Below, piece by piece: positions 2,197 to 37,879 of a stretch of DNA of 37,879 bases (its first letter is position 1; each line of letters starts with the position of its first letter). Both the position numbers and the translations under genes were made by a program. The stretch is taken from the IMG/VR virus record IMGVR_UViG_3300019877_000005, positions 1-37,879 of that record; one strand, written 5' to 3'. Below the pieces are notes generated by a model, which was not told where the DNA came from, searched no databases, and saw only the letters and a program-made list of their open reading frames with translations. The stretch comes from a virus. Its lineage: Duplodnaviria; Caudoviricetes.

Positions 2197-2394
2197 ATGG
2201 AAATTCAAACGCAAGCGGTAGTTTTAGTAAAAAAAGATGATAGGACATATTCATTTGTATGCGCAAATAATTCAACTCTTGGCGAGGTATATGATGTTAT
2301 CCAAGAAATGAGATCTTATATATTTGAACGTATCAAAGAAGTTGAACAAAAACAAAATGAAAAGAAAATTGAACCTATGCAAGAGGCGCAATAA
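2197..2394 (+). CDS. Hypothetical protein (65 aa), possible tail-fibre chaperone
   Basis: AAGGA RBS; TAATG coupling to the next gene. Confidence 0.7.
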   Translation: MEIQTQAVVLVKKDDRTYSFVCANNSTLGEVYDVIQEMRSYIFERIKEVEQKQNEKKIEPMQEAQ

Positions 2395-4548: not shown

Positions 4549-5163
4549 ATGGGGTCTATTAATTGCATAAATGAGAAAAACATTGGAATTCAGTCACTGG
4601 CATCGTCAGGCGTAATCAATGGCGTTACGATTACAGGGACAGCGAATCAGATAAGTATTTCCTCAAATGCTGATGGGACGGCTGGAAATCCAACGGTAGC
4701 ACGCTCAGCAACAATAGTTAATAGCACTCAACCTTGTTTCATGGCGTATTTAAGCGGAAACTTGACGGATGTAACGGGCGATGGCACTAATTATACAGTA
4801 ATTTTTGATACAAAAGCATTTGACCAAGGCACTAATTACAGCACATCGACCGGAAACTTTACTGCCCCGGTGACCGGATTATACTTATTAACATCCTCTA
4901 TAACTTTGTCTGGAGTGTTAGCAGGTAATTCAAGTGCAAACTTAAGGTTTAATAGCAGTTTAAGTAAAGCCTATAGAGGGTTATTATTTAACCCTTTTAC
5001 AATATCTGTTTCAGGTGTTGTCGGGGTGAGTTTTTCTTTATTTGTTAAGTTGACTGCAGCTGAAAACATAGCCTCGCAGATTATTGTGAGTAATGGCACA
5101 AAAGTAGTAGATGTTTTATCAGGCTCGGTAAGTAGTTTTTTTTCCGGTGCATTGATTACATAG
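4549..5163 (+). CDS. C1q-like domain tail protein 1
   Basis: F-x-A-Y...VIFD...FDQGTNYSTSTGNFTAPVTGLY C1q signature. Confidence 0.75.
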   Translation: MGSINCINEKNIGIQSLASSGVINGVTITGTANQISISSNADGTAGNPTVARSATIVNSTQPCFMAYLSGNLTDVTGDGTNYTVIFDTKAFDQGTNYSTSTGNFTAPVTGLYLLTSSITLSGVLAGNSSANLRFNSSLSKAYRGLLFNPFTISVSGVVGVSFSLFVKLTAAENIASQIIVSNGTKVVDVLSGSVSSFFSGALIT

Positions 5164-5169
5164 GAAGTC

Positions 5170-5787
5170 ATGGCAATAATAAATTGTGTAAATCAAAATT
5201 CTACGGGAATACAGGTTCTAACCTCGACCCCTGCATTTGTTGGACGAACACTAACCGGAACCACTAACCAAATAGCTATCTCCAACGGTGACGGGACTTC
5301 GGGAAATCCCACTATAGCCCTTGCATCTACGGTATTGAATGCAACCCAACCAGCATTTTTAGCCTATAATAGTGCTCAGATTTCAAATATTACAGGCGAT
5401 GCCACAGCTTATACAGTTTTATGGGATGCTGAACAATATGATCAGGCCTCAAACTTTAATACTGGAACCGGGACTTTTACATCCCCGGCAACAGGAAAGT
5501 ATTACTTTGCATGCACATTGTCGTTAGGGGGATTGCTACTCACACATACTACCTGCACAGCTTCTATAGTAACAACATCGACAACATTTGCATGTATAGA
5601 CTTCAACCCCTTTACAGATGCAATAGGAACTAATATAGCGATTAATTTTTCAGCAATAGCAGCTATGACAGCTAATGACACTGCGACCATATTGCTTACG
5701 ATATCAGGTGGAACTAAAGTCGTTGATATCCTCTTTGGTTCATCGGCGAACCTTTTGAGTAGTTTTGGCGGATTCTTAATATGTTAA
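5170..5787 (+). CDS. C1q-like domain tail protein 2 (paralog of the previous gene)
   Basis: AFLAY...YDQASNFNTGTGTFTSPATGKYYF; aligns end to end with 4549-5163. Confidence 0.75.
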   Translation: MAIINCVNQNSTGIQVLTSTPAFVGRTLTGTTNQIAISNGDGTSGNPTIALASTVLNATQPAFLAYNSAQISNITGDATAYTVLWDAEQYDQASNFNTGTGTFTSPATGKYYFACTLSLGGLLLTHTTCTASIVTTSTTFACIDFNPFTDAIGTNIAINFSAIAAMTANDTATILLTISGGTKVVDILFGSSANLLSSFGGFLIC

Positions 5788-5829
5788 AATTAATCAAATA
5801 TGTGTACCATTGTGATAAAACAGGTACAC

Positions 5830-6438
5830 ATGTTAAGGAAATGCTCAGTTTGTGGTGAAGAAAAAGAAATCGAAAGATTTGTAAAACAGACAGGGAAATA
5901 TAGATCAGATCCCTACCGCAAAGATTGTAAAGATTGCAGAAATTTTCGCAGGCGTGAGAAAATTAAAATAGAGCCTAAATTTTGGAATCGAGGAACTGGA
6001 AAGGGTAGATGGACTGTAAATTATCATAAATGGAGAAATTCAGTTTTAGAACGTGATAATTTTGAATGTCAAGAATGCGGAGAAAAAGAAGTATTACATT
6101 GTCACCACATTATCTCTTGGAAAGAAAATTATGATTTAAGATTTAATGTAGATAACGGGAAAACCCTTTGTAGGTCATGTCATATAAGATTAGAATCATT
6201 GGAAAGACATAAAAAAGGGATTTCAAAAGAGACTAGAAAAAAAATGAGCGAATCGTTAAAGGGTCATACTTCTTGGAATAAAGGTATTCCAATGACGGAA
6301 GAAGCTAAAAAAAATCTAAGTGATAAGAGAAAAGGAAACACTCTTAATAAAGAGATTAGGAAAAAAATCAGCGATTCATTAAAAGGGCGAAAAGCCTGGA
6401 ATAAAGGATTAACTCGTTATGGCCCAACAAATTCTTAG
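5830..6438 (+). CDS. Free-standing HNH endonuclease with NUMOD3-like WNKG repeats
   Basis: ERDNFECQEC...LHCHHI...NGKTLCRSCH; ATG 5830 follows CAGGT; overlaps the next gene by 20 nt. Confidence 0.85.
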   Translation: MLRKCSVCGEEKEIERFVKQTGKYRSDPYRKDCKDCRNFRRREKIKIEPKFWNRGTGKGRWTVNYHKWRNSVLERDNFECQECGEKEVLHCHHIISWKENYDLRFNVDNGKTLCRSCHIRLESLERHKKGISKETRKKMSESLKGHTSWNKGIPMTEEAKKNLSDKRKGNTLNKEIRKKISDSLKGRKAWNKGLTRYGPTNS

Positions 6439-8978: not shown

Positions 8979-9605
8979 ATGCCTAAAGGTGTTTATGTTA
9001 GGAAATCGCATCATAAAACGGGAAAATTTGAAAGAAGTGATGAACAGAAAGAAATTCTAAGAAAAAGATTTCAAGAACAATCTCGTTTAAGGATAGGTAA
9101 AAAACGCATTTTCAGTGACGAATGGAAACGTAAGATGAGTGAATCCAGAATGGGGAAAGAACCTTGGAATAAAGGGAAAGTAGGAATTTATTCTGATGAA
9201 TGCCTAAAAAAAATTAGGAATGCAAGAAAAAAACAAATCATCACACAGAGCCAAAAAATAAAACAAAGCTTAACAATGAAGCGTAGGGTTTCTGAAGGAA
9301 AATGTCATTTATGGAAAGGAGGAATTAATCCAATTCATAAGGCATTAAGAAAGACAGTGGAATATAAACTTTGGCGAACTTCAGTATTTGAAAGAGATAA
9401 TTTTAAGTGTGTGATATGTGCAAATGATAAGAGCGGAAATCTTGAAGCCGATCATATAAAAGCATTTTCGTTATATCCAGATTTGAGACTTTGTATTAAT
9501 AATGGAAGAACTTTATGTAAGGAATGCCATAGGAAAACGGATACATTTGGATTTAAAGGAAATATTCAAAATAGATATCAGCCGGAAAAGAAAGTCAGGA
9601 GCTAA
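8979..9605 (+). CDS. Free-standing HNH endonuclease (NUMOD3-like N-terminus)
   Basis: WRTSVFERDNFKCVIC...LEADHIK...NGRTLCKECH; AGGAG RBS. Confidence 0.85.
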   Translation: MPKGVYVRKSHHKTGKFERSDEQKEILRKRFQEQSRLRIGKKRIFSDEWKRKMSESRMGKEPWNKGKVGIYSDECLKKIRNARKKQIITQSQKIKQSLTMKRRVSEGKCHLWKGGINPIHKALRKTVEYKLWRTSVFERDNFKCVICANDKSGNLEADHIKAFSLYPDLRLCINNGRTLCKECHRKTDTFGFKGNIQNRYQPEKKVRS

Positions 9606-10018: not shown

Positions 10019-10468
10019 CTAGCAGTAATTTTTGATATATTCATTCAGTTTTTCTTTGGCTCCTTTTTCCTTTGGTTTCCAGGAAAGAGAGCTTCCTTTT
10101 TGTCTATTTTCCTTAGTTTTAAGATACTGAAGATTAGAAATAACATGTTGTCCTCCTTTGGATAAGGGAATTATATGATCTACTTCATATCCTTTAGGAG
10201 TATTCAAATAAAATTGTCTAATACATTCCAATTCTTCCTTTGATAATTCTTTTGTCAAATTCCGATATCTTAAACCACTAATGCAATCTCTGCGTTTAGC
10301 AGACTTTTTACCATTTTTTGATCTACAATATTTTTTGTGATTTTCTAATATATATTCTCTATTGTTTTCATAATACAATCTTCTATATAGATATCGTTTC
10401 CTATCTTCTCTTTTAACGTCAGTTTTAAATAAATTATTACATCTTTTAATAAAGTCTAGTTCTAGCAT
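10019..10468 (-). CDS. HNH endonuclease
   Basis: YEVDHIIPLSKGGQHVISNLQYLKTKENRQK. Confidence 0.85.
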   Translation of the reverse strand: MLELDFIKRCNNLFKTDVKREDRKRYLYRRLYYENNREYILENHKKYCRSKNGKKSAKRRDCISGLRYRNLTKELSKEELECIRQFYLNTPKGYEVDHIIPLSKGGQHVISNLQYLKTKENRQKGSSLSWKPKEKGAKEKLNEYIKNYC

Positions 10469-10593: not shown

Positions 10594-10776
10594 TTACTCA
10601 TTCAAATTCTCTTCATCTCTCATGTCCTCAGGCGCAAATACAGTCCCATCAACAGAAATATATCCTGGCCACATGCAATTTACTCGGGCGTCATTATATG
10701 ACTCCACTGCATTTATGCATTGTCTCATAGCTTTATATGCTTCTTTAGCTATGTGCAGTTTATCTTTCATTTTCAT
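10594..10776 (-). CDS. Hypothetical protein (60 aa)
   Basis: ATGA overlap with the upstream gene. Confidence 0.55.
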   Translation of the reverse strand: MKMKDKLHIAKEAYKAMRQCINAVESYNDARVNCMWPGYISVDGTVFAPEDMRDEENLNE

Positions 10777-11012
10777 TGCCTCTCAGCTCCGCACATACCA
10801 CAGTATCTAATCCTATTGTCATTCTTGTGCCTACATGATGAATTTGGACATGTCCATGTACCTGATTTCACTTTCATTTCATAATCATAATAATCGGCTT
10901 GCTTAATTTCGCATTCCATAACTTCACTGCAATGGGGACATACGATAATAAAATCCTGTGCGCTAGCCACAGAAAAAAACAACAACAACAAACAACATAA
11001 CCATTGAAACAT
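10773..11012 (-). CDS. Exported protein with RanBP2-type zinc finger (79 aa)
   Basis: Start MFQWLCCLLLLFFSVASA after AAGGA; CPHC; WTCPNSSCRHKNDNRIRYCGMC. Confidence 0.7.
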   Translation of the reverse strand: MFQWLCCLLLLFFSVASAQDFIIVCPHCSEVMECEIKQADYYDYEMKVKSGTWTCPNSSCRHKNDNRIRYCGMCGAERQ

Positions 11013-11131
11013 AATCACAGTATCCTTTTTGTGTATTTTATCTATCTTTGTTTGAGATTCAATATTATGCATCTCATGTTGAAGCCAGAATTTGTCATAT
11101 GGAAGCATTTAAAGACTTTCCTTATATTCTT

Positions 11132-20935: not shown

Positions 20936-20974
20936 CTCCGGAAGCAGGGATCGAACCTGCGACAGCTTGATTAA
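20936..20974 (-). pseudogene. 3' half of a tRNA (Asn-like)
   Basis: Minus strand TTAA-TCAAG-CTGTC-GCAGG TTCGATC CCTGC-TTCCGGA-G; intact T arm, no 5' half. Confidence 0.75.
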
Positions 20975-23736: not shown

Positions 23737-24342
23737 ATGACTCGTAAAACAGCTGGCGAACTCTCTCAAAAAGCAGCAGCTGACACCACAAAATATGACG
23801 CTCTTGAAGTAGGTCATGCAATGTCTGATGATATCGGTCTACATTTGCGTCAGGCTATTGAGAATTACAGAGATATTATCAATGAGCCTGAGTTTTGCGT
23901 TGTCATGATCATCGCTAAAGACCCACTTATAGCTAATCTTATTCGTCGTAAGTTCTATTGCTGGCCCTATTTACCTAGCCCAAGACCTAATCAAGCAGTT
24001 TTCCTTTATAACAAAGTAAAAGACTGTATAACGAAAAGACTATGGGTGTTACCTTCAGATATGGTGATGGCTGAACTAGCAGGAACTAATATAATAGTAG
24101 ACAAGCGATACGAAACAATGCAAGCGTGGTCAGTGGCATTCTTTAAAGGTACTTTTTGGGAGTTTATACGACATCAACATGACATCAATATGCCTTCAGA
24201 GCATGAATATTTTCTAGCGCATCGAGAGGAATTGATCAAGGCCGGCGGTAAGATCCCTGATTCTAACCTCACCGATGCCTTTGATTTTAGTAAGATCCAC
24301 GTCAAACAAGTCGTAGATCCTTTGGAACCCGTTTTTAATTAA
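23737..24342 (+). CDS. Hypothetical protein (201 aa)
   Basis: Long ORF between portal and scaffold genes. Confidence 0.75.
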   Translation: MTRKTAGELSQKAAADTTKYDALEVGHAMSDDIGLHLRQAIENYRDIINEPEFCVVMIIAKDPLIANLIRRKFYCWPYLPSPRPNQAVFLYNKVKDCITKRLWVLPSDMVMAELAGTNIIVDKRYETMQAWSVAFFKGTFWEFIRHQHDINMPSEHEYFLAHREELIKAGGKIPDSNLTDAFDFSKIHVKQVVDPLEPVFN

Positions 24343-24503: not shown

Positions 24504-25241
24504 ATGAATCCAGTTGCAACAGAAATTAAACCAGAAACTAAAATAGAACAACAACAAAATATACAACAATCGCCGATTCAGGCTAAAGAAGAATCTCCTC
24601 CCATAAAAACAGAAGAAAACCAAGCCAACTGGAAGGCATTTAGGGAACAGCGTGAAACAGAACGTAAAGCAAGAGAAGAAGCAGAAAAACGAGCACAACA
24701 AAAGCAAGAGGAAGCCTCTGCCTTACGCGCAGCACTAGAAGCGATTACAAACAAACCGAATCAGAATCAATTGCAAGATTCCAGTGATATAGAAGATAGT
24801 GAGGAGAAAAGAATTGATAGAAGGGTAAACCAAATCATAGCCGAGAGAGAAGCACAAGCCGAGCAAGCAAGAGAAGAAAGAGATAGAAAAGAAGCACCAC
24901 AAAAAATACTTCAAACTTTCCCCGATTTTCAAAAGGTTGTTACAACTGAAAACTGCGATTATCTAGACTATCATTATCCTGAATTAACAGCACCCTTTAA
25001 GTACATGCCAGATGGGTATGATAAATGGGTTGCTATGTATAACGCTATTAGAAAATTCGTACCAAATAACGATTCAAAAAAAGATATGGCTAAAGCGGAT
25101 AAGAATCTTCAAAAGCCCGGTTCTATTTCAAGTACGGGAACATCAACAGGGACCGGTCAAATGCCTTCAGCGCAATTAACTGAGGAAAGGAAAGCTGCTA
25201 ATTACGCAAGGATGCAAAGAACATTAAAAGGGTTGAGTTAA
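24504..25241 (+). CDS. Putative capsid scaffolding protein
   Basis: Charged coiled coil immediately upstream of the capsid gene. Confidence 0.7.
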   Translation: MNPVATEIKPETKIEQQQNIQQSPIQAKEESPPIKTEENQANWKAFREQRETERKAREEAEKRAQQKQEEASALRAALEAITNKPNQNQLQDSSDIEDSEEKRIDRRVNQIIAEREAQAEQAREERDRKEAPQKILQTFPDFQKVVTTENCDYLDYHYPELTAPFKYMPDGYDKWVAMYNAIRKFVPNNDSKKDMAKADKNLQKPGSISSTGTSTGTGQMPSAQLTEERKAANYARMQRTLKGLS

Positions 25242-25265
25242 ATTATATATTTAAATATACATAAT

Positions 25266-25375
25266 ATCAGCTGATCAGGACGTCGCTAATCCAGGCTGAT
25301 CCATACCTCGCCAGTATGTGCAGATAGGTACTAGCTCGCAACTAGGACATATGAAACATACTGTCGAGGTAAAAA
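25266..25375 (+). promoter_or_regulatory. Structured 5' leader of the capsid gene
   Basis: Three TCGC-loop hairpins; 25304-25319 is complementary (15/16) to 25356-25371, which contains GAGGT. Confidence 0.65.
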
Positions 25376-26344
25376 ATGTCCTTCCCAACAGGTATCACAA
25401 ATATAAATAATTTCGCTCCCGAGTTGCCGGTTCAGGCTTCGGAAGACCTATTGTCAACGCCAATGTTTAATTTAATTCATAGCTTTGGCGTAGATTTACA
25501 CCATGCAGAAGCCTATATCGGTAAAACAACTAGAATGTCACGATTTGAGCGTCTATCTACTGATGGCGGTCAACTTGACGGTTCCGGTATCGATCCAGCC
25601 TCTGAAGTACCCGTAAGAACTGATATCGACGCCACAATGGAAATCTATGCGAAATCCATCGTGACAAATGAGCAAGTCGTATTATATGAAAACAGCAAAA
25701 CGCTAACCAAGTTCACAGCTTTGCTTGGACAATGGGTAAGAGAAAAAGAAGATCTCTTGATGAGAGACTTGTTTGCTAGCTCTGTATCCTACATTAATGC
25801 TACAGGTGGAACAAACGGCGATCAGCCAAGTAATATTAGCTTGAATGATGTGAACAACATCGAAACTATATTACTTAACAATGATGCTCGTACAATGCTT
25901 GTAAGCATAGATGCTATGGATAAGTTTTCAACAGGTCCTACAAGAGATGCATTCATTGCTCTTGCATCAACTGCTCTTACAAACGATCTTCAGAAAGTTC
26001 AAGGTGTTATTTTAAAGAATGCTTACCCATCACAAGAAGGTTTAAGACCGGAAGAATATTGTTCAATTTCAAGATTCCGTTTCTTTGTTTCTTCAAAAGG
26101 CGCAAAAACACCTGGTATTTCAACACTAGGCCGCACAGTCTATACGATTCCAATGTATGGTCTTGAAGCTGCTGCTAAGATTGAACAAAACAACTATACC
26201 GCAGTAATCGGCTATCGTCCTCCATGGGTGGTTTCTTCTGTGGCTCAAAATAGCCAACTTTATGCGAAATTTGCAATTGCAAGAGCAATTACGAATCAAA
26301 ACTGGATCTCCGGTTTGAATGTAACTACATTTACCCCATCCTAA
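25376..26344 (+). CDS. Major capsid protein (N4-gp56-like)
   Basis: Size and position; GKTTRMSRFERL, EKEDLLMRD and LYAKF motifs. Confidence 0.8.
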   Translation: MSFPTGITNINNFAPELPVQASEDLLSTPMFNLIHSFGVDLHHAEAYIGKTTRMSRFERLSTDGGQLDGSGIDPASEVPVRTDIDATMEIYAKSIVTNEQVVLYENSKTLTKFTALLGQWVREKEDLLMRDLFASSVSYINATGGTNGDQPSNISLNDVNNIETILLNNDARTMLVSIDAMDKFSTGPTRDAFIALASTALTNDLQKVQGVILKNAYPSQEGLRPEEYCSISRFRFFVSSKGAKTPGISTLGRTVYTIPMYGLEAAAKIEQNNYTAVIGYRPPWVVSSVAQNSQLYAKFAIARAITNQNWISGLNVTTFTPS

Positions 26345-35737: not shown

Positions 35738-36226
35738 GTGGATGAATTGCAAGAACTTGAACAACTTCTAAAAGAATTGTTACAGGGGATTCAACAAGTT
35801 ATCCAGTCTGGTGAGGAATTGTCAGATGAATTTCAAAGTCAATTAGCTAAAACATTAGGGATTTTAGTTGAGAGGATCGACCAGTTACAAGATGAAAACC
35901 CTGTTGAAGGATTGCATCCACAACAACCAGAATTGCAGCCAGGCCCATTTCCTTCAAGCAATGTAAATTCTTTCAAGTATGACCCAAAAAGTCAAAGACT
36001 TTTTGTTAAGTTCCATGGAAAAGATTCGGCAGAAGCAGGCCCAATATATAGTTATGAAAAAGTGCCAGAACATATTTTTGATATTTTCAGACGTGGAGCT
36101 GTTGCCCCAAAAACATCTGGAAAAAATCAATATCATCAATGGTTTGAAGGTGTTACACCTTCTCTAGGAGCTTCAATGAATGCACTCATTAAAGCTGGTG
36201 GATATCCCTTTAAAAAATTGAGATAA
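35738..36226 (+). CDS. KTSC-domain protein with N-terminal helical extension
   Basis: SSNVNSFKYDPKSQRLFVKFH...YSYEKVPEHIF. Confidence 0.75.
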   Translation: MDELQELEQLLKELLQGIQQVIQSGEELSDEFQSQLAKTLGILVERIDQLQDENPVEGLHPQQPELQPGPFPSSNVNSFKYDPKSQRLFVKFHGKDSAEAGPIYSYEKVPEHIFDIFRRGAVAPKTSGKNQYHQWFEGVTPSLGASMNALIKAGGYPFKKLR

Positions 36227-36269: not shown

Positions 36270-36899
36270 ATGAAAAAAAACGAAGTTTTCATATCAAAAA
36301 GATTTAACAATCTAGTCGTAATTGAACGATTAGGAATGGAAAAAGAATATCGTAAATTTTGGATATGTCAATGTGATTGTGGAAATAAAAAAATTGCTCG
36401 AATTGATGCCCTTAAGGATGGAACCACAAAGGATTGTGGATGTAAAAGAACCATCAATATGCAGATAAAAATATTTAATAGAAAGTATACAAAAAAAATC
36501 GATGGATGCTGGCAATGGAAAGGATTTTGTACAAGTTCAGGACATGGTCAATTAGGAAAAAAAGGCGCACATAGATTTTCATATGAATTATTTAAAGGAG
36601 AAATAGGCAAAGGTTTATTTGTTTGTCATTCCTGTGATAATCCTGGATGTGTAAATCCCGATCATCTTTTTTTAGGAACGCCTAAGGATAATATGCACGA
36701 TATGATAAAAAAAGGACGTGATCGAAAAGCAAAAGGAGAAACTTCAGGAACCTCTAAATTGAAGGAAAATGAAGTTCTTGAAATAAGAAGATTATCCTTT
36801 GAAGGTAAAAGTTACAAAGAGCTTTCTGAAAAGTTTAAAATTTCCAGGGTAACAATAGGTCAAATTATCCGAGGTGAACGCTGGAAACATTTAATATAA
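36270..36899 (+). CDS. HNH endonuclease with C-terminal HTH
   Basis: WICQCDCG; CWQWKG; AHRFSY; [19 protein letters not shown]. Confidence 0.9.
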
Positions 36900-37722: not shown

Positions 37723-37879
37723 ATGCCCCAGCCGTTTGGTTCTTTCCCATTTGACGCCGCCGGCGTTGATAACTTTGCTCACCCACAAACGTTAGGGCCA
37801 AACCTAAGGCCTCCAACAACTAATGATATCCAAAATCCAGGAACTCAGTGGCTAGATAGTAGTGTTTCCCCTCCTATTA
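37723..37879 (+). CDS. N-terminal 52 codons of the tail fibre gene continued at 134
   Basis: MPQPFGSFPFDAAGVDNFAHPQ...SPPI is in frame with ATG 134 via the repeat. Confidence 0.85.
   Translation, partial: MPQPFGSFPFDAAGVDNFAHPQTLGPNLRPPTTNDIQNPGTQWLDSSVSPPI
37754..37879. repeat. Terminal direct repeat, right copy
   Basis: Identical to 9-134. Confidence 0.95.

What the first reader, a model, noticed from the sequence alone, without database searches (positions are those of the whole stretch)
25266..25378. Candidate two-state RNA switch controlling major capsid translation
Seen: three hairpins with related loops, GGA-cgTCGCtaa-TCC, CATAC-cTCGCca-GTATG and CTAG-cTCGCaa-CTAG, the first two each preceded by GCTGATC (25270 and 25295). 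Mutually exclusive with hairpin 2, TACCTCGCCAGTATGT (25304-25319) pairs at 15 of 16 positions with ACATACTGTCGAGGTA (25356-25371), burying the GAGGT SD 5 nt before the ATG. An AT-rich promoter-like stretch precedes it. Inference: a repeated-ligand RNA element in which a protein binding the TCGC loops (scaffold, capsid or another phage protein) stabilises the hairpins and frees the RBS, tying capsid synthesis to assembly state. I do not recognise it as a known family.
Basis: partly seen in the sequence, partly recalled or inferred. Interest (0 to 1): 0.8.

Follow-up and report, generated by a model that had tools for sequence, protein, structure and literature searches.

The report
Triple-pseudoknot switch gating phage capsid translation
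The capsid gene of a large group of uncultured phages is preceded by a conserved RNA made of two to four co-evolving miniature pseudoknots that compete with a helix covering the ribosome-binding site, and the same cassette recurs before a fibre-like gene, so it likely keeps these virion genes off until a phage protein, probably a late one such as the scaffold, binds the repeats.

Summary
Each "GCTGATC + hairpin" unit is a ~25-nt pseudoknot: upstream N-R-C-x-G pairs with the loop C-G-Y-N. Across 140 distinct leaders the two variable pairs are Watson-Crick in 238/254 and 200/254 modules (shuffled 147 and 105), and are specific to their own module. The anti-SD helix co-varies only for module 2 (own tail beats the median foreign tail in 87/97; modules 1 and 3 at chance). 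A sigma70-like promoter puts the predicted 5' end at module 1. The cassette reaches capsids only 35-38% identical. A two-module copy with its own promoter and anti-SD precedes a fibre-like gene in 16 of 27 related genomes, though not in this one, which suggests a small late regulon. There is no Rfam match, and it is not STAXI. An unviewable candidate (DNAVirus_3698, Fremin 2023) may overlap. Best model (0.5): a translational ON switch whose pseudoknots are captured by a multivalent phage protein, with scaffold the lead suspect. Rivals are a ligand-free kinetic timer (0.25) and a metabolite or ion riboswitch (0.12). The ligand and the switching are inferred, not shown.

The parts
25233..25265 (+). 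Probable sigma70-type promoter of the capsid transcript (weak match in this genome)
   Evidence: 59 leaders anchored on module 1: T 83%/T 56%/G 41% at -37..-35 and T 69%/A 71%/T 73% at -14/-13/-9; A 76% at -2. Window: TTGAGT 25233-38 and TATACA 25256-61, read; start site inferred.
25269..25292 (+). Pseudoknot module 1: AGC-t-G (25269-73) pairs with loop CGCT (25284-87); stem GGA/TCC
   Evidence: module-1 knot helix 96.9% paired in 33 aligned leaders, 2 of 4 pairs with two-sided changes
25294..25318 (+). Pseudoknot module 2 (switching module): GGC-t-G (25294-98) pairs with loop CGCC (25309-12); stem CATAC/GTATG
   Evidence: G-C/A-U switches on both sides together: 28 and 26 steps, 29 jointly
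25319..25345 (+). Pseudoknot module 3: TGC-a-G (25319-23) pairs with loop CGCA (25337-40); stem CTAG/CTAG
   Evidence: 16/14/16 steps
25304..25319 (+). Anti-SD strand of the OFF helix (stem top, loop and 3' arm of module 2)
   Evidence: 15 of 16 pairs; covariation specific to module 2
25356..25371 (+). 3' strand of the OFF helix, including the Shine-Dalgarno GAGGT (25366-70)
   Evidence: SD unpaired probability about 0.00-0.01 in the free ensemble
25376..26344 (+). Major capsid protein gene, N4-gp56 family (target)
   Evidence: TIGR04387 above cut-off; source names
24504..25241 (+). Probable scaffolding protein gene, lead candidate for the ligand (inferred)
   Evidence: present in 30 of 30 genomes and 124 of 131 loci with enough flank; all-helical model; nearest named Atlas cluster PF09306 Phage-scaffold, 13% of members, score 0.93; weak scaffold rows in BFVD

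Best explanation
The capsid leader is a conserved array of three co-varying miniature pseudoknots whose middle unit competes with a helix over the ribosome-binding site, and it likely works as a translational ON switch: predicted to fold first as pseudoknots, to collapse by default into the SD-hiding helix, and to stay open only when a multivalent phage protein, probably the free scaffolding protein, captures the repeats. SHOWN (sequence and comparison): the modules, their pairings, the competing anti-SD helix, a promoter consensus, and a second copy before a fibre-like gene in relatives. PREDICTED: the OFF fold is the equilibrium fold, and hairpin 2 forms first during transcription. INFERRED: transcription starts at module 1, a protein binds each module cooperatively, binding blocks strand exchange into the OFF helix, and the ligand is a late phage protein (about 0.5 overall; scaffold in particular about 0.3). 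This would let a host-type promoter fire early while capsid and fibre are made only once the activator accumulates, and, if it is scaffold, in proportion to scaffold not yet built into procapsids.
For: Pseudoknot: 238/254 and 200/254 WC against shuffled maxima of 169 and 127; off-register controls fall below shuffle; both pairs WC with the own loop 193/254 against 18/139 (next) and 19/139 (previous). After dereplication to 109 clusters: 184/196 and 156/196 against 121 and 78. The two sides change together on the capsid tree. Un-bulged versions occur in 7 distant leaders. Switch: own module-2/tail duplex -15.1 against -10.3 kcal/mol, 87/97 better than the median foreign tail; module 1 27/60, module 3 47/97. 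The distal arm makes 5 or more WC pairs in 42/81 against 11% for foreign tails, with 14 distinct duplexes; module 1 0/57. Forcing hairpin 2 opens the SD region in 65/85 leaders and closes it in 3. Regulon: a model built from capsid leaders, run over the window plus 29 genomes, gives 39 hits: 27 capsid leaders, 11 fibre-gene leaders, 1 weak other. The second array has its own promoter and anti-SD (own beats foreign 14/16). Protein rather than metabolite: every knot pair has compensatory variants, including C-G to U-A and G-C to A-U, and some lineages shift all or most modules at once (TTT x2, TT x2, CTT, GG). That fits a co-evolving partner. [quoted passage not shown]
Against: No ligand is shown, and there are no expression or probing data. 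Forcing hairpin 2 costs a median 11 kcal/mol (quartiles 7.7-13.6; no pseudoknot term). That is large for an equilibrium shift, so capture must be kinetic. In the window, the hairpin-2-forced model still pairs part of the SD elsewhere. In 21 of 140 leaders module 2 is replaced by a different knot (AGAG/CUCU) that keeps the anti-SD, so the switching unit need not carry the consensus. The second array is absent from this genome and from 10 of 27 relatives (3 with unclear start or short flank). The U-type leaders may be one lineage, and no capsid residue tracks them; one scaffold residue (N42) differs in all 5, a lead only. The scaffold label itself rests on position, helicity and weak look-alikes.
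Confidence: 0.5

Rival explanations
1. Ligand-free kinetic timer. The pseudoknots are metastable folds that delay the OFF helix, so only nascent transcripts load ribosomes and output is set by transcription rate, as proposed for the MS2 maturation leader.
For: Hairpin 2 appears first in stepwise folding and the OFF helix only when the 3' strand emerges. The OFF fold is far more stable (-25.5 against -5.8 kcal/mol for the drawn structures). A plain AGAG/CUCU knot can replace module 2. No unpaired base is invariant. Precedent: PMC4615214 passages.
Against: It does not explain module 1, which shows no anti-SD covariation (27/60) yet is kept at the 5' end of both arrays, in the distant clade and in the AGAG class. 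It also does not explain why all modules keep one shared shape and shift in concert.
Confidence: 0.25
2. Tandem riboswitch. Each module binds a host metabolite or ion, and the repeats give a cooperative ON response that ties virion synthesis to host state.
For: Aptamer-plus-expression-platform anatomy, tandem repeats, a compact knot with a 1-nt 3' linker that is A in 146/184 modules and a loop U in 174/184. Tandem aptamers are known (recalled: glycine, guanidine-II).
Against: About 25 nt is smaller than natural aptamers I recall. No invariant unpaired base, and lineage-wide shifts in the core. Structured hits occur only before virion genes: 12 of 12 in a full viral scan and 38 of 39 model hits. 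Bacterial chromosomes were not searched for it.
Confidence: 0.12
3. The modules bind a host or phage factor for another purpose (antitermination like HK022 put, mRNA 5' protection, or repression by capsid), and the anti-SD helix is a separate damper.
For: Module 1 lies at the predicted 5' end right behind a promoter, and the operon behind it is long.
Against: Module 2 and the anti-SD helix use the same nucleotides and co-vary in both folds, in both arrays. Stabilising the modules should open, not close, the SD.
Confidence: 0.09
4. A phage small RNA pairs with the anti-SD strand and frees the SD.
For: An 11-nt complement of loop 2 lies at window 2280-2290.
Against: That match lies inside an apparent small ORF starting near 2198 (read by eye, exact frame not confirmed). 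It is one of four 11-mers, about what chance gives, and other sites score as well or better. An sRNA does not explain repeated intramolecular knots. Relatives were not scanned for complements.
Confidence: 0.04

Closest known systems
Phage Mu Com / mom mRNA translational activation (PMC6483171, passages read)
   Same: A phage protein binds hairpin-loop motifs, present in several copies, next to a translation-inhibition structure and exposes the start signals.
   Different: Com binds a CC(N)2-3GAG loop in a plain hairpin beside the inhibitory stem. Here the unit is a repeated pseudoknot whose own nucleotides form the inhibitory helix, the targets are virion genes, and no Com-like activator is identified.
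STAXI RNA motif, RF01728 (PMC2864571, passage and supplementary alignment read)
   Same: A pseudoknot repeated two or three times.
   Different: Larger unit with CCAAU, CUGRGA and an inner UUCG hairpin; lies near DNA-handling genes; no anti-SD switch described; no match here.
MS2/Levivirus maturation-gene 5' leader (PMC4615214, passages read)
   Same: A transient fold holds the anti-SD strand until a long-range SD helix forms.
   Different: A single hairpin in an RNA phage, with no repeated pseudoknots and no DNA promoter.
T4 gene 32 operator and P22 gene 8 scaffold autoregulation (passages in PMC10690425 and bioRxiv 2022.12.13.520362; details recalled)
   Same: A phage protein controls translation through a leader; T4 uses a pseudoknot; P22 links free scaffold to translation.
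   Different: Both are autogenous repression of the protein's own gene. Here the logic points to activation of other genes (capsid, fibre).
Fremin et al. 2023 candidates DNAVirus_3698 and DNAVirus_865 (PMC10690425, supplementary tables read)
   Same: Predicted structured RNAs within 25 nt upstream of capsid_maj_N4 genes (37 and 4 times) in IMG/VR.
   Different: Their sequences and alignments could not be opened, so identity is untested. They are listed only as table rows, with 2 covarying bases each.

Membership tests
Any Rfam 15 family | Score at or above the gathering threshold | tested here: not met
   0 hits in the window; only chance rows at E<=10 on 25200-25420; none on the leaders of 11 related loci; 0 in 7 stretches that hold second arrays
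STAXI (RF01728) | Match to the covariance model | tested here: not met
   0 matches at E<=10 in G000
STAXI (RF01728) | Repeat unit with CCAAU, CUGRGA and an inner UUCG hairpin | tested here: not met
   STAXI alignment against the module anatomy
STAXI (RF01728) | Pseudoknot repeated 2-3 times | tested here: met
   2-4 modules in 93 of 140 leaders under the strict UCG definition
Mu Com/mom-type activation | Inhibitory structure over the translation start with an adjacent or overlapping repeated motif | tested here: met
Mu Com/mom-type activation | CC(N)2-3GAG loop motif and a Com zinc-finger protein | tested here: not met
   Loops are YUCGCN; no Com family among the window ORFs scanned; the one weak zinc-ribbon ORF (10773-11108) was not among ORFs found in 5 or more of 29 genomes
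Mu Com/mom-type activation | Protein binding activates translation | not testable with these tools
   Needs binding and reporter assays
Metabolite riboswitch | Expression platform mutually exclusive with the conserved domain | tested here: met
Metabolite riboswitch | Invariant unpaired core nucleotides | tested here: inconclusive
   Loop U 174/184 and 3' A 146/184, none invariant; bulge variable
Metabolite riboswitch | Direct ligand binding | not testable with these tools
   Needs in-line probing
Levivirus maturation leader (kinetic switch) | Early metastable fold holds the anti-SD strand | tested here: inconclusive
   Stepwise MFE folding agrees; kinetics not computed
Fremin 2023 DNAVirus_3698/865 | Sequence or model identity | not testable with these tools
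   Alignment files not readable
N4-gp56 major capsid (target gene) | TIGR04387 above cut-off | tested here: met
   66.1 bits against cut-off 60

The most novel reading that the evidence does not exclude
Free scaffolding protein is a multivalent RNA-binding translational activator that reads arrays of miniature pseudoknots and switches on capsid and fibre synthesis: a portable promoter-plus-pseudoknot cassette that meters virion proteins by assembly state and replaces transcriptional late control in a widespread uncultured phage group.
Probability: 0.3. Interest if true: 0.88.

Novelty: new variant of a known kind. Interest (0 to 1): 0.74.

Why it matters
How tailed phages match capsid to scaffold and time their late genes is mostly explained by transcription; the translational cases I know are repressors (T4 gp32, P22 gp8) plus Mu Com. 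This element gives a compact, testable case of a late regulon run at the level of translation. It has a 25-nt pseudoknot unit supported pair by pair, a co-varying OFF helix, two target genes, and natural variants (bulged or un-bulged, C/U/G core types, an AGAG replacement) that serve as ready-made specificity controls. A new small RNA fold with its ligand would also be a candidate part for synthetic ON switches.

Tried and rejected
Rfam: no match. STAXI: different unit. Thermometer: the predicted SD stays paired from 10 to 65 C. Upstream ORF in the tail: ATG in 40/140 leaders against 59 shuffled. Trans sRNA: chance-level 11-mer. KTSC protein (35738-36226) as ligand: in 28/30 genomes but not found in G029 and G030, which carry modules, so downgraded. 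Scaffold-capsid complex: no verdict. RNA runs: no RNA holder listed. Scaffold fold in PDB: nothing at E<=0.001. Loose pattern scans were mostly chance: one search returned 120 of about 4400 stretches, 5 passed a stem filter without looking real and 1 held the capsid gene; one search returned 120 of about 900, 6 passed, 4 before distant capsids. P0127 found no loci. Host: bin titles disagree, so unknown; the only cultured-collection hit was a 27% capsid. Errors of mine: the third constrained fold had off-by-one pairs (redone); alignment A2 held 4 misplaced rows (not used); module 2 was mis-picked in 6 of 16 rows (redone); the 'M2' class is positional and includes some first modules of two-module leaders. 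Literature: searches showed no description of this motif; one search (STAXI) returned only psychology papers among the 30 listed. The supplement of Weinberg 2017 (PMC5737381) and the alignment files of Fremin 2023 could not be read and may bear on novelty.

Full report
Setting. The window is a 37.9-kb virus record judged complete; its two ends overlap. It carries terminase, a P22-like portal, RecT/YqaJ and tail genes. The finding lies in the 134-nt gap between a 245-aa gene (24504-25241) and an N4-gp56-family capsid gene (25376-26344). The host is unknown.

Observation. The OFF fold is the predicted minimum (-36.9 kcal/mol, SD unpaired about 0.00-0.01; z = -3.0). The window holds one three-module array and 100 shuffles held none.

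Relatives. Capsid searches gave 217 loci, 213 with a usable leader and 140 distinct, at 62-100% capsid identity. By eye, the bases before the upstream C track the bases after the loop's UCG. To test this without bias I defined hairpins by a UCG loop and a stem of 4 or more pairs (280), and anchors by the nearest upstream C-x-G (254), neither looking at the other. The pair next to the C is Watson-Crick in 238/254 (G-C 175, A-U 63; shuffled mean 147, maximum 169). The next pair is WC in 200/254 (shuffled 105, maximum 127). The third position out is at chance (80/254), and off-register controls fall below shuffle. Both pairs match the own loop in 193/254 but the next or previous loop in only 18/139 and 19/139. 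With 109 clusters below 75% identity the result holds (184/196, 156/196). On a capsid tree the two sides change together: 28 and 26 steps, 29 jointly for module 2; 16, 14 and 16 for module 3. An independent count on 33 aligned leaders gives 96.9% pairing for the module-1 knot and a covariation score of 0.552, against 0.224 shuffled and at most 0.081 slid. The two near-invariant pairs also have compensated variants (C-G to U-A in 4 leaders; G-C to A-U in 5 modules). The unit is therefore a 4-bp pseudoknot helix, N-R-C-(x)-G with C-G-Y-N, on a 4-6-bp hairpin. Its geometry (a 1-nt 3' linker) is unusual, and its 3D form is not known. Under the strict definition 115 of 140 leaders have at least one module; most others show variant loops by eye.

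Reach. Seven leaders of a distant clade (capsids about 35-38% identical) carry three un-bulged modules each, some with inserted hairpins. In a full viral scan for a two-module pattern, 12 of 42 hits had the module-1 anchor and all 12 precede this capsid; the other 30 had neither.

The switch. The module-2 segment pairs with its own pre-ATG tail at -15.1 kcal/mol against -10.3 for foreign tails, and beats the median foreign tail in 87/97 leaders; modules 1 and 3 do not (27/60, 47/97). Outside the conserved SD core, the 3' arm makes 5 or more WC pairs in 42/81 leaders against 11% for foreign tails, in 14 distinct duplexes. The OFF fold also buries the upstream strand of module 3 in 50/81. Forcing hairpin 2 opens the SD region in 65/85 leaders, at a median cost of 11 kcal/mol without any pseudoknot term. 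Both folds are thus under selection and exclude each other. In 21 leaders module 2 is a different knot (AGAG/CUCU) that keeps the anti-SD and arm pairing beside an intact or variant module 1. A -35/-10 consensus with 17-nt spacing puts the predicted start at the A of module 1 (59 leaders).

A second target. In 29 near-complete genomes a two-module copy appeared before a long Thr/Gly/Ala-rich, fibre-like gene (no PHROG or PDB name). It is present in 16 of 27 genomes where the gene was found, plus one variant, and absent in 10 and in this window. It has its own promoter, and its module-2 arm pairs with that gene's SD region (own beats foreign 14/16; SD more open in 10/16). A covariance model from 33 capsid leaders finds 39 matches in 1.14 Mb: 27 capsid leaders, 11 fibre leaders (mostly at weak E-values, 2.5e-5 to 0.56) and one weak other.

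Mechanism. Hairpin 2 forms first in stepwise folding, and the OFF helix replaces it once the SD strand is made. Anything that stabilises the knots favours translation. Module 1 takes no part in the anti-SD pairing yet is kept everywhere, which points to a repeated binding site. The lack of invariant unpaired bases and the concerted core shifts within leaders favour a co-evolving protein over a metabolite. Of the proteins shared with the distant clade, the scaffold-like protein is the best suspect: universal, helical, nearest to a Phage-scaffold cluster, with a conserved basic and aromatic N-terminal helix. A P22 precedent exists. This step is inference. A ligand-free timer remains a serious rival, given the large energy gap and the AGAG class.

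Known systems. There is no Rfam match and it is not STAXI. It works most like Mu Com/mom or the MS2 maturation leader but belongs to neither. Fremin 2023 lists two unviewable candidates upstream of N4-type capsids, and the Weinberg 2017 supplement was unreadable, so prior listing as a bare prediction cannot be excluded. What I read of each paper: passages of PMC2864571, PMC5737381, PMC10690425, PMC4615214, PMC6483171 and one passage of bioRxiv 2022.12.13.520362, plus one supplement part of the first and table rows of the third. HK022 put, the T4 and P22 details and tandem riboswitches are recalled. Earlier scan notes describe pseudoknot arrays before capsids in other genomes, but none was found by sequence likeness. 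They suggest a recurring theme and are not support.

Verdict. A real, uncatalogued (as far as I could search) repeated-pseudoknot translational switch, with a second target gene in relatives. Structure and two-state design are strongly supported; the ligand is open. Interest 0.74.

Noticed in passing
window 37723-37879 continuing at 2-2158: The record's ends overlap; a fibre-like gene starts at ATG 37723 and runs across the join. Its homologues carry a second pseudoknot array in 16 of 27 relatives, but this copy has none.
   Followed up: yes
window 35738-36226 +: KTSC-domain protein with a helical N-terminus, found in 28 of 30 related genomes, often just upstream of the fibre-like gene; not found in the two distant genomes.
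   Followed up: partly
L016, L019, L022 and 18 more leaders: Module 2 is replaced by an AGAG/CUCU classical-type pseudoknot that still supplies the anti-SD; module 3 is lost or degenerate.
   Followed up: partly
L084, L219, L222 capsid genes: The capsid match is about 300-400 nt longer than the protein needs, and P0128's cluster holds many 227-aa and 110-aa pieces: probably an intron or other insertion in the capsid gene.
   Followed up: no
L004:1792-1856: int-alpA RNA match just under the gathering score (35.1 against 35.8 bits) upstream of the capsid region.
   Followed up: no
window 4549-5787 +: Two tandem C1q-domain proteins in the putative fibre region.
   Followed up: no
window 5800-6438, 8979-9605, 10019-10468, 36270-36899: Four HNH endonuclease genes, two with NUMOD3 motifs.
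   Followed up: no
window 23737-24342 +: A 201-aa gene of no known family between portal and scaffold, found in 27 of 29 relatives but not the distant two.
   Followed up: partly
window 20939-20965: Short intergenic stretch after the terminase gene that reads like the reverse strand of a tRNA T-arm fragment (by eye), possibly an attachment-site remnant; not tested.
   Followed up: no
window 25242-25270 -: The best sigma70-like match in the region points leftwards into the scaffold-like gene (10 of 12); matches in the region overall are at chance level.
   Followed up: no
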